Below are positions 1 through 58,673 of a stretch of DNA of 64,000 nucleotides, one piece after another. The notes under the pieces were generated by a model. It was not told the DNA's origin, ran no database searches, and was given only the letters and a program-made list of their open reading frames with translations. The stretch lies in assembly GCF_009914755.1 (NCBI RefSeq), contig NC_060948.1; one strand, 5' to 3'. The first letter of the stretch is position 1. Every line of letters begins with the position of its first letter. The position numbers were made by a program, and so were the translations under genes. This DNA is from the human T2T-CHM13v2.0 reference genome, Homo sapiens.

Positions 1-3000
1 CAATAAACATACGTGTGCATGTGTCTTTATAGCAGCATGATTTATAGTCCTTTGGGTATATACCCAGTAAGGGGATGGCTGGGTCAAATGGTATTTCCAG
101 TTCTAGATCCCTGAGGAATCGCCACACTGACTTCCACAGTGGTTGAACTAGTTGACAGTCCCACCAACAGTGTAAAAGTGTTCCTATTTCTCCACATCCT
201 CTCCAGCACCTGTTGTTTCCTGACTTTTTAATGATTGCCATTGTAACTGGTGTGAGATGGTATCTCATTGTGGTTTTGATTTGCATTTCTCTGATGGCCA
301 GTGATGATGGACATTTTTTCATGTGTTTTTTGGCTGCATAAATGTCTTCTTTTGAGAAGTGTCTGTTGATGTCCTTCACCCACTTTTTGATGGGGTTGTT
401 TGTTTTTTTCTTGTAAATTTGTTTGAGTTCATTGTAGATTCTGGATATTAGCCCTTTGTCAGATGAGTAGGTTGTGAAAGTTTTCTCCCATGTTGTAGGT
501 TGCCTGTTCACTCTGACGGTAGATTCTTTTGCTGTGCAGAAGCTCTTTAGTTTAATTAGATCCAATTTGTCAATTTTGTCCTTTGTTGCCATTGCTTTTG
601 GTGTTTTAGACATGAAGTCCTTGCCCATGCCTATGTCCTGAATGGTAACGCCTAGGTTTTCTTCTAGGGTTTTGATGGTTTTAGGTCTAATGTTTAAGTC
701 TTTAATCCATCTTGAATTGATTTTTGTATAAGGTGTAAGGAAGAGATCCAGTTTCAGCTTTCTACATATGGCTAGCCAGTTTTCCCAGCACCATTTATTA
801 AATAGGGAATCCTTTCCCCACTGCTTGTTTTTCTCAGGTTTGCCAAAGATCAGATAGTTGTAGATATGCGACATTATTTCTGAGTTCTCTGTTCTGTTCC
901 ATTGATCTATATCTCTGTTTTGGTACCAGTACCATGCTGTTTTGGTTACTGTAGCCTTGTATTATAGTTTGAAGTCAGGTAGTGTGATGCCTCCAGCTTT
1001 GTTCTTTTGGCTTAGGATTGATTTGGCGATGTGGGCTCTTTTTTGGTTCCATATGAACTTTAAAGCAGTTTTTTCCAATTCTGTGAGGAAAGTAATTGGT
1101 AGCTTGATGGGGATGGCATTGAATCTGTAAATTACCTTTGGCAGTATGGCCATTTTCACGATATTGATTCTTCCTACCCATTAGCATGGAGTGTTCTTCC
1201 ATTTGTTTGTATCCTCTTTTATTTCCTTGAGCAGTGGTTTGTAGTTCTCCTTGAAGAGGTCCTTCACATACCTTGTAAGTTGGATTCCTAGGTATTTTAT
1301 TCTCTTTGAAGCAATTGTGAATGGGAGTTCACTCATGATTTGGCTCTCTGTTTGTCTGTTGTTGGTGTATAAGAATGCTTGTGATTTTTGTACATTGATT
1401 TTGTATCCTGAGACTTTGCTGAAGTTGCTTATCAGCTTAAGGAGATTTTGGGCTGAGACAATGGGGTTTTCTAGATATACAGTCATGTCGTCTGCAAACA
1501 GGGACAATTTGACTTCCTCTTTTCCTAATTGAATACCCTTTATTTCCTTTTCCTGCCTAATTGCCCTGGCCAGAACTTCCAACACTAGGTTGAATAAGAG
1601 TGGTGAGAGAGAGGGCATCCCTGTCTTGTGCCAGTTTTCAAAGGGAATGCTTCCAGTTTTTGCCCATTCAGTATGATATTGGCTGTGGGTTTGTCATAGA
1701 TAGCTCTTATTATTTTGAAATACGTCCCGTCAATACCTATTTTATTGAGAGTTTTTAGCATGAAGAGTTGTTGAATTTTGTCAAAGGCCTTTTCTGCATC
1801 TATTGAGATAAACATGTGGTTTCTGTCTTTGGTTCTGTTTATATGCTGGATTACATTTATTGATTTGTGTAAATTGAACCAGGCTTGCATCCCAGGGATG
1901 AAGCCCACTTGATCATGGTGAATAAGCTTATTGATGTGCTGCTGGGTTTGTTTTGCCAGTATTTTATTGAGGATTTTTCCATCAATGCTCATCAAGGATA
2001 TTGGTCTAAAATTCTCTTTTTTTGTTGTGCTCTGCCTGGCTTTGGTATCAGGATGATGCTGTCCTCATAAAAAGAGTTAGGGAGGATTCCCTCTTTTTCT
2101 ATTGATTGGAATAGTTTCAGAGGGAATGGTACCAGTTCCTCCTTGTACTTCTGGTGGAATTCGGCTGTGAATCCATCTGGTCCTGGACTCTTTTTGGTTG
2201 GTAAACTATTGATTATTGCCACAATTTCAGATCCTGTTATTGGTCTATTCATAGGTTCAACTTTTTCCTGGTTTAGTCTTGGGAGAGTGTATGTGTCCAG
2301 GAATTTATCCGTTTCTTCTAGATTTTCTAGTTTATTTGCATAGTGGTGTTTGTAGTATTCTCTGATGGTAGTTTGTATTTCTGTGGGATCGGTGGTGTTA
2401 TCCCCTTTATCATTTTTTATTGCATCTATTTGATTCTTCTCTCTTTTTTCTTTATTAGTCTTGCTAGCAGTCTATAAGTTTTGTTGATCCTTTCAAAAAA
2501 CCAGCTCCTGGATTCATTAATTTTTTGAAGGGTTTTTTGTGTCTCTATTTCCTTCAGTTCTGCTCTGATTTTAGTTATTTCTTGCCTTCTGCTAGCTTTT
2601 GAATGTGCTCTTGCTTTTCTAGTTCTTTTAATTGTGATGTTAGGGTGTCAAATTTGGATCTTTCCTGCTTTCTCTTATGGGTATTTAGTGCTATAAATTT
2701 CCCTCTACACACTGCTTTGAATGTGTCCCAGAGATTCTGGTATGTTGGGTCTTTGTTCTCGTTGGTTTCAAAGAACATCTTTATTTCTGCCTTCATTTCG
2801 TTATGTACCCAGTAGTCATTCAGGAGCAGGTTGTTCAGTTTCCATGTAGTTAAGCAGTTTTGAGTGAGATTCTTAATCCTGAGTTCTAGTTTGTATGCAC
2901 TGTGGTCTGAGAGATAGTTTGTTATAATTTCTGTTCTTTTACATTTGCTGAGGAGAGCTTTACTTCCAAGTATGTGGTCAATTTTGGAATAGGTGCTGTG

Positions 3001-56300: not shown

Positions 56301-58673
56301 TGGGGTGGGGGGGAGGGGGGAGGGATAGCATTGGTAGATATACCTAATGCTAGATGATGAGTTAGTGGGTGCAGCACACCACCATGGCACATGTATACAT
56401 ATGTAACTAACCTGCACATTGTGCACATGTACCCTAAAACTTAAAGTATAATAATAATACATTAAAAAATAAAAATAAAAACTCTCAATAAATTAGGTAT
56501 CCACGGGACGTATCTCAAAATAATAAGAGCTAGCTATGACAAACCCACAGCCAATATCATACTGAATGGGCAAAAACTGGAAGCATTCTCTTTGCAATTT
56601 GGCACAAGACAGGGATGCTCTCTCTCACCACTTCTATTCAACATAGTGTTGGAAGTTCTGGCCAGGTGAATCAGGCAGGAGAAGAAAATAAATCATATTC
56701 AATTAGGAGAAGAGGAAGTCAAATTGTCCCTGTTTGCAGATGACGTGATTGTATATCTAGAAAACCCCATCATCTCCGTCGAAAATCTCCTTAATCTGAT
56801 AGGCAATTTCAGCAAAGTCTCAGGATACAAAATCAATGTGCAAAAATCACAAACAGTCTTATACACCAATAACAGACAAACAGAGAGCCAAATCATGAGT
56901 GAACTCCCATTCACAATTGCTTCAAAGACAATAAAATACCTAGGAATCCAACTTACAAGGGATGTGAAGGACCTCTTCAAGAAGAACTACAAACCACTGC
57001 TCAAGGAAATAAAAGAGGACACAAACAAATGGAAGAACATTCCATGCTCATGGGTAGGAAGAATCAATATCGTGAAAATGGCCATACTGCCCAAGGTAAT
57101 TTACAGATTCAACGCCATCCCCATCAAGCTACAAATGACTTTCTTCTAAGAATTGGAAAAAACTACTTTAAAGTTCATATGGAACTGAAAAAGAGCCCAC
57201 ATTTCCAAGTCAATCCTAAACGAAAAGAACAAAGCTGGAGGCATCACGCTACCTGACTTCAAACTATACTTCATGTCTGCTGTAACCAAAACAGCATGGT
57301 ACTGATACCAAAACAGAGATATAGACTAATGGAACAGAAAAGAGCCCTCAGAAACAATGCCACGTATCTACAACTATCTGATCTTTGACAAACCTGACAA
57401 AAACAAGCAATAGGGAAAGGATTCCCTATTTAATAAATGATTCTGGGAAAATTGGCTAGCCATATGTAGAAAGCTGAAACTGGATGCCTTCCTTACACCT
57501 TATACAAAAATTAATTCAAGATGGGTTAAAGATTTAAATGTTTGACCTAAAACCATAAAAACCCTAGAAGAAAACCTAGGCAATACCATTCAGGACATAG
57601 GCATGGGCAAAGACTTCATGTCTAAAACACCAAAAGCAATGGCAACAAAAGCCAAAATTGACAAATGAGATCTACTTAAACTAAAGAGCTTCTGCACAGC
57701 AAAAGAAACAACCATCAGAATGAACAGGCAACCCACAGAATGGGAGAAAGTTTTTGCAATCTACTCATCTGACAAAGGGCTAATATCCAGAATCTACAAT
57801 GAACTCAAACAAATTTACAAGAAAAAAAAACCAACCCCAACAAAAAGTGGGTGAAGGATATGAACAGGCACTTCTCAAAAGAAGACATTTATGCAGCCAA
57901 AAAACACGTGAAAAAATGTTCATCACCACTGGCCGTCAGAGAAATGCAAATCAAAACCACAATGAGATACCATCTCACACCAGTTAGAATGTTGATTATT
58001 AAAAATCAGGAAATAACAGATGCTGGAGAGGACGTGAAGAAATAGGAACACTTTTACACTGTTGGTGAGACTGTAAACTAGTTCAACCATTGTGGAAGTC
58101 AGTGTGGTAGTTCCCCAGGGGTCTAGAACTAGAAATACCATTTGACCCAGCCATCCCATTAATGGGTATATACCCATAGGATTATAAAACATGCTGCTAT
58201 AAAGATACATGTACACGTATGTTTATTGTGGTACCATTCATAATAGCAAAGACTTGGAACCAACCCAAATGCCCAAAAATCATAGACTGGATTAAGAATA
58301 TTTGGCACATATACACCATGGAATAGTATGCAGACATAAAAAATGATGAGGTCCTGTCCTTTGTAGGGACATGTATGAAGCTGGAAACCATCACTCTTAG
58401 CAAACTATCACAAGGACAAAAACCAGACACCACATGTTTTCACTCATAGGTGGGAATTGAACAATGAGAACCCCTGAACACAGGAAGGGGAACATCACAC
58501 ACTGAGACCTGTTGTAGGGTGTGGGGAGCAGGTAGGGATAGCATTAGGAGATATACCTAATGTTAAATGACGAGTTGATGGGTACAGCCAAACAACATGG
58601 AACATATATACATATGTAACTAACCAGCACATTGTTCACATATATCCTAAAACTTAACATATTTTTTTTTAAA
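50333..58673 (+). mobile_element. L1-E: full-length L1PA4/PA5-like element containing a second, younger L1 3' half (E1, ~54400-56477)
   Basis: 5'UTR from ~50333. Two 3'UTR/poly(A) ends at ~56450 and ~58660. TSD aaa(a/c)acagtta at 50320-50330 and 58885-58895, preceded by TTTT. Confidence 0.95.
54400..56477 (+). mobile_element. L1-E1: L1PA2/PA3-like 3' half joined in register inside L1-E
   Basis: Young-type diagnostics (GCAATTAGG, GCTAGATGATGAGTTAGTGGG) and its own poly(A); host ORF2 restarts at 56478. The left boundary is approximate. Confidence 0.75.

What the first reader, a model, noticed from the sequence alone, without database searches (positions are those of the whole stretch)
1..58673. 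Local L1-to-L1 gene-conversion network: independent L1 insertions share a patchwork of private and inactivating mutations
Seen: L1-B, C, C1, D and E have distinct TSDs, and these and L1-A differ in subfamily diagnostics, so they are separate insertions. Yet short tracts of non-consensus variants are shared in different pairings (A/E1, B/E1, B/C, C/E, B/E, D/E, C1/E1; ACCATCAAAACC occurs in A, C1 and E1). Several shared changes kill ORF2: a +2 frameshift, TAG and TGA stops, and a 4-bp deletion. Known: L1 proteins act in cis, so a null allele should rarely be inherited from a common active source. Inference: repeated post-insertion non-allelic gene conversion has made these L1s evolve in concert as a local pool, regardless of age and orientation.
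Basis: partly seen in the sequence, partly recalled or inferred. Interest (0 to 1): 0.85.

Follow-up and report, generated by a model that had tools for sequence, protein, structure and literature searches.

The report
Old sequence exchange among neighbouring Y-chromosome L1s
A cluster of old L1 retrotransposon copies on the human Y chromosome mostly share mutations no more than chance predicts, but one composite copy shares private mutations with several neighbours, which looks like ancient local copying between repeats, a process already known for other repeat families.

Summary
The window (human chrY) holds nine L1 pieces from at least eight insertions. Pfam domains, poly-A tails and target-site duplications confirm them as L1s.

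**Ordinary pairings.** Calibrated against 74 unlinked L1 copies, pairs not involving copy E share 21 rare variants against 14.2 expected. One cited B/E pair of variants is a subfamily marker with 390 copies genome-wide. The C/E1 and C/D combinations also occur in unlinked copies.

These exceed chance.
- **D/E:** 16 pair-specific sites plus a 4-bp frameshift deletion, all within about 1.4-1.7 kb, and the deletion haplotype is unique in the genome.
- **E/E1:** a four-change cluster.
- **A/E:** a +2 frameshift plus 4238C.
- **B/E:** two transversions 31 bp apart.
- **C1/E:** four or five rare changes.

E is also a composite. A younger, 5'-truncated L1 appears to sit in register inside an older L1 whose 3' part is "E1".

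**Reading.** The best explanation is a few old ectopic gene-conversion events between neighbouring L1s, plus one nested insertion (confidence about 0.55). There is no sign of recent homogenisation. This is a local example of a known process; interest is moderate.

The parts
1..5403 (-). L1-A: young-type L1 with an intact 5' end; its 3' end lies before the window start. Carries the +2 (CT) insertion at 1612-1613, 4238C at 1482, 4585A at 1139 and 5054C at 674.
   Evidence: map and coordinates; RVT_1 and L1 ORF1p Pfam domains; the RVT_1 match is split over two frames around 1585-1693.
8512..14523 (-). L1-B: old-type, full-length L1 with a 105-bp internal deletion relative to the other copies. Shares 4656T and 4687T (window 10038 and 10007) with E.
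18336..26703 (-). L1-C: old-type, full-length L1 with a target-site duplication (TCTAGTTTCTT). Interrupted by C1 and C2.
22634..24567 (+). L1-C1: young-type insertion inside C, with an inverted 5' part (22634-23251) and a direct 3' part (23245-24567). Has its own target-site duplication. Shares variants with E at 23070 and 22920 (inverted part) and at 23427, 23664 and 23865 (direct part).
25162..25465 (-). L1-C2: 300-bp L1 3' end inserted in C, flanked by a duplicated TGTCTAATCTTTTTT.
43417..47812 (+). L1-D: old-type insertion with an inverted 5' part (43417-45947, alignment columns 1751-4300) and a direct 3' part (45960-47806). The same 12-nt duplication (AATACCATCTCA) lies at both outer ends, so it is a single event.
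43694..45117 (-). D side of the D/E shared tract (columns 2591-4020), including the shared 4-bp deletion near 44915.
50334..54396 (+). 5' part of E: old-type L1 ('O', columns 0 to about 4100).
52896..54316 (+). E side of the D/E shared tract. 16 pair-specific sites lie in columns 2591-4274, plus a 4-bp deletion near 53098 and a 1-bp insertion.
54260..54396 (+). Stretch of E that is repeated at the start of E1 (columns 3964 to about 4100). E and E1 share five private changes here, four of them within 11 bp (54372-54382).
54397..56477 (+). 3' part of E: young-type, A/C1-like ('Y'), ending in a poly-A tail that abuts E1. Carries +CT at 54403-54404, and the shared sites 54534, 54754, 54877, 54904, 54947, 54978, 55341, 55578 and 55779.
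56476..58657 (+). L1-E1: old-type 3' part (columns 3963-6172), read here as the 3' remainder of 'O'.
36161..36440 (+). L1-F: short, older L1 3' end. Not part of the sharing.

Best explanation
The L1 pieces are separate retrotransposition events of different ages. Most variants shared by two of them are recurrent mutations or subfamily markers.

The exception is everything that touches copy E. E is a composite. An older full-length L1 ('O') was hit at an A-rich site by a younger, 5'-truncated L1 ('Y', about 54397-56477). Y joined in register, so that O's 5' part plus Y looks like one full-length element, and O's 3' part ('E1') follows Y's poly-A tail. About 130 bp of O is present on both sides.

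On top of this, a few ectopic (non-allelic) gene-conversion events copied stretches between neighbours:
- a tract of about 1.4 kb between O and the inverted part of D, about 9 kb away. It carried a 4-bp frameshift deletion and a dozen point changes;
- a patch of at least 32 bp between B and Y;
- probably short patches linking Y with C1 and with A.

The exchanges are old. The partners have since diverged by about 10 %, so they most likely happened soon after insertion, when the copies were still nearly identical.

Shown: the map, the shared sites, their rarity genome-wide, and the bounded D/E tract. Inferred: gene conversion as the mechanism, its timing, and the nested-insertion history.
For: **Independent insertions.** Distinct flanks and target-site duplications are readable for B, C, C1, C2 and D. 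The window's self-BLAST finds no similarity outside L1 and a few weak repeats.

**D/E tract.**
- 16 sites are shared by D and E alone among five copies. All lie in columns 2591-4274, with 0 in columns 1751-2590 and 0 in 4305-5730.
- Other pairs have 1-8 such sites in the same span. P(>=16 | 4.3) = 1.2e-5, and the range test gives 2.4e-5.
- 14 D/E-only sites have at most 2 carriers among 47-57 unlinked copies.
- D and E share a 4-bp deletion with two flanking substitutions. That haplotype has 2 hits in the genome, both in the window.
- Three unlinked copies carry 3938A+3954A. Each has at most one of the other ten D/E-shared changes tabulated.

**E/E1.** Four changes within 11 bp are shared. The 27-mer containing them has 2 genome hits, both in the window. 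E changes from old-type to A-like between columns 4086 and 4107. In columns 4100-4300, E differs from A at 7 of 200 columns and from E1 at 26 of 200.

**B/E.** 4656T+4687T has 2 genome hits, both in the window.

**A/E.** The +CT insertion with 4238C has 2 genome hits, both in the window.

**C1/E.** 4462T+4612T has 3 hits: 2 in the window and 1 on chr9 that lacks the other shared sites. 5291A+5495T has 4 hits, 2 in the window.

**Calibration against 74 unlinked copies.**
- Pairs with E share 11 against 3.66 expected (P = 0.0014).
- C1/E transversions: 3 against 0.28.
- A/E transversions: 2 against 0.13.
- B/E transversions: 2 against 0.28.

**The 5054C variant.** 90 carriers against 14,903 copies with the common allele, and 3 of the 90 lie in this window.

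**Method control.** A true subfamily marker gives 390 dispersed hits.
Against: - **No raised identity in the tract.** D-E divergence inside the tract is 10.0-10.7 %, against 9.9 % outside. The longest identical runs are 43-111 columns. The case therefore rests on shared rare sites only.
- **Weak per-pair statistics.** In columns 4305-6175, no single pair survives correction for 42 tests.
- **C1/E needs two events.** The shared sites lie on both sides of C1's inversion junction, so one tract cannot explain them, whereas a common RNA source could.
- **Interleaved sites.** The A/E and C1/E sites interleave (4462, 4585, 4612), so any history needs at least one extra event.
- **Slippage-prone site.** The +CT insertion sits in a CT run.
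- **Panel bias.** The control panel consists of the best-scoring hits (40 scored of 8,222-13,727 candidates per query) and is biased towards little-diverged copies.
- **Panel gaps.** No panel could be fetched for D and E1. No old-type panel covers columns below 4278.
- **Limited sensitivity of exact patterns.** Exact patterns of 22-28 bases would miss most members of a small, old sub-lineage.
- **No target-site duplication for 'O'.** I could not find one.
- **No outgroup.** No other species or second human assembly was available.
Confidence: 0.55

Rival explanations
1. Local descent by retrotransposition. D and 'O', and separately A, C1 and 'Y', are parent-daughter or sibling copies from rare source elements. 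They happened to land close together and were fixed together on the non-recombining Y. The shared private changes, including the null alleles, came through the RNA.
For: - The C1/E shared sites lie on both arms of C1's inversion, which one RNA explains in a single step.
- A tree ((C1,E),A) fits 8 of the 9 trio characters.
- The combinations are absent from unlinked copies, as expected for a very small lineage.
- 4462T is over-represented on chrY, with 9 of 61 hits.
Against: - D/E sharing is confined to columns 2591-4274 of an overlap that spans columns 1751-6178. There are 0 sites in the 840 columns upstream and no excess between D and E1 downstream.
- The private loads differ: A has 22 in 1415 columns and C1 has 58 in 1856. 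These are not one burst.
- Shared frameshifts would need mobilisation in trans.
- L1 is not known to reinsert near its source (recalled knowledge). Two or three relatives within 56 kb of a 3.1-Gb genome is very unlikely by chance.
Confidence: 0.2
2. Nothing local. All shared variants are recurrent mutations at mutable sites plus unrecognised subfamily markers, picked out after the fact from 21 pairs of heavily mutated copies.
For: - The control constants are high (1.05 for transitions, 0.81 for transversions), so 0.2-1.9 shared rare sites per pair are expected.
- Pairs without E share 21 against 14.17 expected (P = 0.053).
- B/E 3805A+3813T has 390 copies.
- The C/E1 and C/D combinations recur elsewhere.
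- The stop at column 5828 is hit in three copies.
- No pair in columns 4305-6175 survives correction for multiple tests.
Against: - The D/E tract: 16 sites against about 4.3, confined to one span, with a shared 4-bp deletion.
- Four changes within 11 bp are shared only by E and E1.
- Two transversions 31 bp apart are shared only by B and E.
- 5054C occurs in 3 of 7 local copies at a 0.6 % genome frequency (7.6e-6).
Confidence: 0.12
3. Assembly or polishing artefact. E was built or corrected from reads of several local L1s.
For: E is the hub of nearly all excess sharing. No read data could be examined.
Against: - E has its own private changes throughout: 40 rare sites in 1854 columns.
- E is never identical to a partner for more than 111 columns.
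- The copies differ by 6-12 %. By my own judgement, untested here, long accurate reads separate copies that different easily.
- A patched assembly would give long identical stretches, not isolated shared sites.
Confidence: 0.03

Closest known systems
Non-allelic gene conversion between neighbouring Alu elements (whole-genome study of non-diagnostic mutations, as summarised in PMC8230782; passages read)
   Same: Independent retrotransposon insertions that lie close together share non-diagnostic mutations more often than expected. This is read as exchange after insertion that falls off with distance.
   Different: Here the elements are 2-6-kb L1s lying 9-45 kb apart on the male-specific Y, whereas that summary gives a range of about 10 kb for Alu. 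This is one locus, not a genome-wide statistic. One tract is about 1.4 kb, longer than a whole Alu.
Ectopic gene conversion among HERV LTRs on the human Y chromosome (PMC4921805; abstract and opening paragraphs read)
   Same: [quoted passage not shown]
   Different: That work used polymorphism among living Y chromosomes and found donors on other chromosomes too. Here the events are old and fixed in the one assembly seen, the partners are local, and the elements are L1s.
Recombinant full-length L1s in human pangenome assemblies (PMC13192797; passages read: 35 high-confidence or probable recombinants among 2,267 loci screened)
   Same: L1 copies whose 5' and 3' parts belong to different lineages, as E does.
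   Different: Those are young L1s. That preprint removes them from its analysis, and in the passages I read it does not say how they arose or whether the donors are local.
Twin-priming inversions, and chimeric L1s formed when a new L1 cDNA joins a resident L1 (recalled from the L1 literature; no paper read here)
   Same: C1 and D have the inverted-5'/direct-3' layout with a single target-site duplication. E looks like a new L1 joined in register to a resident one.
   Different: The roughly 130-bp duplication of the target is much longer than the usual 7-20 bp. The in-register join is inferred from sequence only.

Membership tests
LINE-1 (L1PA-type) retrotransposon insertions | Coding remnants of ORF1p and of the ORF2p reverse transcriptase | tested here: met
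   open stretches of copy A match RVT_1 (E = 8.6e-25 and 2.8e-16) and Tnp_22_dsRBD, Transposase_22 and Tnp_22_trimer. 4 of the 6 stretches scanned had a match.
LINE-1 (L1PA-type) retrotransposon insertions | A common 3' end with an A-rich tail, variable 5' truncation or inversion, and flanking target-site duplications | tested here: met
   all pieces align to one 6.1-kb frame. Duplications are readable for B, C, C1, C2 and D. They cannot be checked for A (its 3' end lies outside the window) and were not found for E or E1.
LINE-1 (L1PA-type) retrotransposon insertions | Assignment to named subfamilies (L1PA2-PA8) by diagnostic positions | not testable with these tools
   No Dfam or RepeatMasker consensus was on hand. 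I only separated a 'young' group (A, C1, 3' part of E) from an 'old' group (B, C, D, E1, 5' part of E), using unlinked panels.
Non-allelic (ectopic) gene conversion tract | The partners are independent copies, not products of one duplication | tested here: met
   different flanks and different target-site duplications.
Non-allelic (ectopic) gene conversion tract | Derived variants are shared by the two partners beyond what recurrent mutation gives | tested here: met
   D/E: 16 against about 4.3. All pairs with E: 11 against 3.66. Not met for pairs without E: 21 against 14.17.
Non-allelic (ectopic) gene conversion tract | The shared variants are absent from unlinked members of the family | tested here: met
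   2 hits each, both in the window; 1-3 further hits; the four copies I fetched (L085-L088) lack almost all of the other shared sites, and the two extra hits were not fetched. Not met for B/E 3805A+3813T: 390 hits.
Non-allelic (ectopic) gene conversion tract | The sharing is contiguous and bounded, with no sharing in flanking homologous sequence | tested here: inconclusive
   Met for D/E and compatible for B/E (columns 4656-4697). For C1/E the sites straddle an inversion junction, and for A/E they interleave with the C1/E sites.
Non-allelic (ectopic) gene conversion tract | An outgroup or an unconverted allele shows the state before conversion | not testable with these tools
   Only one human assembly is held. 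No other primate Y was available.
Concerted evolution (copies kept alike as a pool) | Local copies are more alike than unlinked copies of the same age | tested here: not met
   The best unlinked hits are 93-97 % identical, whereas local partners diverge by 5.4-9.2 % in the same columns. No two window copies are sisters in the tree.

The most novel reading that the evidence does not exclude
Local exchange between L1 insertions may not be a curiosity of this window. It may be a general, distance-dependent process that moves single rare variants between neighbouring L1s of different subfamilies over tens to hundreds of kilobases.

The A>C variant at column 5054 has 90 carriers genome-wide. They form about 15 regional clusters: 28 adjacent gaps are under 500 kb, against 1.3 expected. 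These clusters mix 'young' and 'old' subfamily backgrounds. A control variant with 63 carriers shows no such clustering.

If this is conversion rather than old segmental duplication, L1 divergence-based ages and source-lineage trees would be biased in L1-dense regions.
Probability: 0.2. Interest if true: 0.65.

Novelty: new member of a known kind. Interest (0 to 1): 0.4.

Why it matters
Gene conversion between dispersed repeats blurs the two things L1 copies are used for: dating insertions by their divergence, and tracing source lineages by shared mutations. This locus is a worked example on the non-recombining Y. One composite L1 carries tracts shared with several neighbours, including inactivating changes that could not easily have come through a working source element. 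It also shows that most of an apparent 'network' dissolves once sharing is calibrated against unlinked copies. The genome-wide clustering of one of the variants would deserve a proper distance-decay study.

Tried and rejected
- **The 12-mer ACCATCAAAACC genome-wide:** 554 hits against 546 for the reversed control, and none of the first 8 loci held L1. It is too short to be informative, so I replaced it with 18-mers.\n- **Whole-copy concerted evolution:** rejected by the tree and the identities.\n- **Recent conversion:** the test of longest identical runs gives runs of at most 111 columns. The low permutation P values also appear for pairs with no shared rare sites, and probably reflect uneven conservation along L1.\n- **A D/E subfamily:** rejected.\n- **The chr9 copy with 4462T+4612T as a member of a C1/E lineage:** rejected. 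It lacks 5054C, 5291A and 5495T, and is 88 % identical to E.\n- **The 'insertions' at columns 4107-4108 in two panel copies:** these are alignment artefacts.\n- **E as a normal member of a subfamily:** a 2-kb query across its junction finds only 93-94 % matches, against 96 % for its 3' kilobase.

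
Full report
**What is in the window.**

A self-comparison, and mapping on one full-length copy, put all long repeats into a single 6.1-kb frame. Strand below is the L1 sense strand.
- A: 1-5403 (-). Its 3' end is cut by the window start.
- B: 8512-14523 (-), with a 105-bp internal deletion.
- C: 18336-26703 (-).
- C1: 22634-24567, inside C. 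Its 5' part (22634-23251) is inverted relative to its 3' part.
- C2: 25162-25465, also inside C.
- F: 36161-36440.
- D: 43417-47812, again with an inverted 5' part (43417-45947).
- E: 50334-56477 (+).
- E1: 56476-58657 (+), abutting E.

Open stretches of A match RVT_1 and the three L1 ORF1p domains (4 of 6 stretches matched). A-rich tails and flanking duplications are readable for B, C, C1, C2 and D. D's two arms share one 12-nt duplication, so D is a single event.

The copies are 81-94 % identical to each other. The 12-mer ACCATCAAAACC is exact only in A and E. C1 has the same A>C change next to another difference.

**Reference panel.**

No family consensus was on hand, so I used unlinked copies from the same genome.
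- One-kilobase queries from A, B, C, D, E and E1 found unlinked copies at 97, 94, 93-94, 94-95, 96 and 95 % identity. Each call scored 40 of 8,222-13,727 candidates.
- I could fetch 29 unlinked copies from the hits of each of E and A, and 8 from the hits of each of B and C, giving 74 in all.
- D and E1 therefore have no panel of their own. Old-type copies cover only columns 4278-6150. All panel copies are best hits, so they are biased towards little-diverged copies.

**No concerted evolution of whole copies.**

In a tree of columns 4305-5730, no two window copies are sisters. Each sits on a long branch among unlinked copies. Local partners differ by 5.4-9.2 % in columns 4305-5000, which is more than the distance to the best unlinked copies.

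**How much sharing does chance give?**

I called a variant rare if at most 1 of the 74 panel copies carries it. I counted rare variants shared by pairs in columns 4305-6175. I scaled the counts by the product of the two private loads, separately for transitions and transversions, using window-panel and panel-panel pairs as the control. The control constants are 1.05 for transitions and 0.81 for transversions.

| Pairs | Observed | Expected | P |
|---|---|---|---|
| All 21 window pairs | 32 | 17.8 | 0.0016 |
| The 6 pairs with E | 11 | 3.66 | 0.0014 |
| The 15 pairs without E | 21 | 14.17 | 0.053 |

The strongest single results are transversions:
- C1/E: 3 against 0.28 (P = 0.003).
- A/E: 2 against 0.13 (P = 0.007).
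- B/E: 2 against 0.28 (P = 0.03).

None of these survives correction for 42 tests.

**Genome-wide counts of the shared combinations.**

A subfamily marker should be common in unlinked copies. The B/E pair 3805A+3813T is exactly that, with 390 dispersed hits.

| Pair | Shared combination | Genome hits | In window |
|---|---|---|---|
| B/E | 3805A+3813T | 390 | 2 |
| C/D | adjacent AT>GC change | 7 | 2 |
| C/E1 | 4680T+4948T | 4 | 2 |
| B/E | 4656T+4687T | 2 | 2 |
| E/E1 | 27-mer with four changes | 2 | 2 |
| A/E | +CT with 4238C | 2 | 2 |
| D/E | 4-bp deletion with 2801T and 2812T | 2 | 2 |
| C1/E | 4462T+4612T | 3 | 2 |
| C1/E | 5291A+5495T | 4 | 2 |
| D/E | 3938A+3954A | 5 | 2 |

- The third C1/E 4462T+4612T hit is a chr9 copy that lacks the other shared sites.
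- The three unlinked D/E 3938A+3954A copies each carry at most one of the other ten D/E-shared changes tabulated.
- Uniqueness rules out subfamilies. It does not by itself rule out chance, because any two chance-shared sites form a rare pair. The test against chance is the calibrated count above, together with the clustering described next.

**The D/E tract.**

Among A, B, C, D and E, sites where two copies share one base and the other three share another number 6-9 per pair over columns 1751-5730 for the six pairs unrelated by subfamily.
- D/E has 16 such sites, all in columns 2591-4274. There are none in 1751-2590 and none in 4305-5730.
- The range test gives 2.4e-5, and the count against the background of about 4.3 gives 1.2e-5.
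- D and E also share a 4-bp deletion and a 1-bp insertion in this span.
- C/D sharing, which otherwise runs along the whole length as expected for subfamily relatives, is 0 in columns 3250-4000, where D/E sharing peaks. This hints that D was the recipient. The numbers are small.
- D-E divergence in the tract is about 10 %, no lower than elsewhere. If this is a conversion it is old: roughly a dozen of each copy's private changes predate it, and the rest came later.
- A common RNA source cannot explain sharing limited to 1.4-1.7 kb of a 4.4-kb overlap.

**E is a composite.**

Up to column 4086, E carries old-type states and the D-shared sites. From column 4107 it is A-like: it differs from A at 7 of 200 columns in 4100-4300, against 26 of 200 from E1.
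- E1 starts at column 3963, right after E's A-rich tail, at a TAAAAA stretch.
- In the overlap (columns 3964 to about 4100), E and E1 share five private changes, one of them also present in D.
- The simplest history is an old L1, made of E's 5' 4.1 kb plus E1, into which a younger 5'-truncated L1 inserted. About 130 bp of the target was duplicated, and the 5' join is in register.
- This explains E's 'mixed subfamily', the E/E1 sharing and the lack of a normal duplication around E. It is inferred from sequence, and I could not find the old element's own target-site duplication.

**The young trio.**

- C1 and E share 4462T, 4612T, 5054C and 5291A, and also 5495T, which 2 panel copies carry too.
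- A and E share +CT, 4238C, 4585A and 5054C.
- 4238C also occurs in 2 panel copies, one of which has the same four-site haplotype as A and E.
- +CT lies in a CT run.
- The C1/E sites lie on both arms of C1's inversion, so conversion needs two events, whereas a common RNA needs one. On the other hand, the private loads differ (A 22 in 1415 columns, E 40 in 1854, C1 58 in 1856), which does not fit one burst. Three relatives within 56 kb would also be a remarkable coincidence.
- I leave the trio as probable conversion, not shown.

**Inactivating changes.**

The shared ones are:
- the +2 insertion (A/E);
- the 4-bp deletion (D/E);
- TGG>TGA (D/E1; 1 of 74 panel copies has it too);
- CAA>TAA/TGA (C/E1);
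- TAC>TAG (C/E1; TAA in B).

The stops are single changes at sites that also mutate elsewhere, so they need no special explanation. The two frameshifts belong to the E-centred sets.

**A wider pattern.**

The A>C change at column 5054 has 90 carriers against 14,903 for the common allele.
- The carriers are strongly clustered. 28 adjacent gaps are under 500 kb against 1.3 expected, and 16 are under 100 kb against 0.26 expected. Only 2 of these gaps lie in the window.
- The clusters mix the young and old marker 20 nt upstream.
- A D-private A>C control (63 carriers) has 1 such gap. 4462T (61 carriers) has 2, and 4687T (87 carriers) has 5.
- Some clusters lie in regions that I recall as rich in segmental duplications (chr11 pericentromere, 2q13). 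I could not test this.
- 4462T has 9 of its 61 carriers on chrY.

**Comparison with what is known.**

Ectopic conversion between dispersed repeats is established in several cases:
- neighbouring Alus (PMC8230782, passages);
- LTRs on the Y (PMC4921805, abstract and opening paragraphs);
- TEs in general (PMC6598467, passages).

Recombinant young L1s are reported in a pangenome preprint (PMC13192797, passages). My three literature searches turned up no study of local conversion among old L1s on the Y. That is not proof that none exists, and bioRxiv supplements were not open.

**Verdict.**

This is a local example of a known process, combined with a nested insertion. It is not a uniform conversion network.

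Noticed in passing
window 674 (A), 23427 (C1), 55341 (E); genome-wide places: The rare A>C variant at column 5054 has 90 carriers, against 14,903 for the common allele. The carriers are regionally clustered across the genome: 28 adjacent gaps are under 500 kb, against 1.3 expected. The clusters mix young-type and old-type L1 backgrounds. A control variant with 63 carriers is not clustered.
   Followed up: partly
genome-wide list: The G>T variant at column 4462, shared by C1 and E, has 9 of its 61 carriers on chrY. These include a pair 26 kb apart at 15.45 Mb and three carriers at 23.7-26.0 Mb.
   Followed up: no
window 50334-51100 (E), 4600-5403 (A), 13700-14523 (B), 25900-26703 (C): In the 5' UTR the four full-length copies group differently along the sequence. 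In the first 200 columns, A+E group against B+C (10 sites). In columns 200-800, A+B group against C+E (23 sites). No unlinked panel covers this part, so subfamily structure, CpG decay and exchange cannot be told apart.
   Followed up: no
window 11669 (B): B lacks 105 bp that A, C, D and E all have at the same place in ORF2.
   Followed up: no
window 47806-47862: Between D's A-rich tail and the 3' copy of its target-site duplication lie about 40 nt of A-rich, non-L1 sequence. This could be a degenerate tail or a short 3' transduction.
   Followed up: no
window 53744-53959 (E): In the 2-kb search, most unlinked copies stop aligning to E at query position 144 or 359. E therefore has a locally poorly matching stretch here, and E is also the most diverged copy in columns 3300-4100 (12 % from A, B and C).
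   Followed up: no
window 58326 (E1), 18682 (C) and the matching site in B: One ORF2 codon (TAC at column 5826) is a stop in three copies: TAG in C and E1, and TAA in B. It is a stop in none of the 74 panel copies.
   Followed up: no
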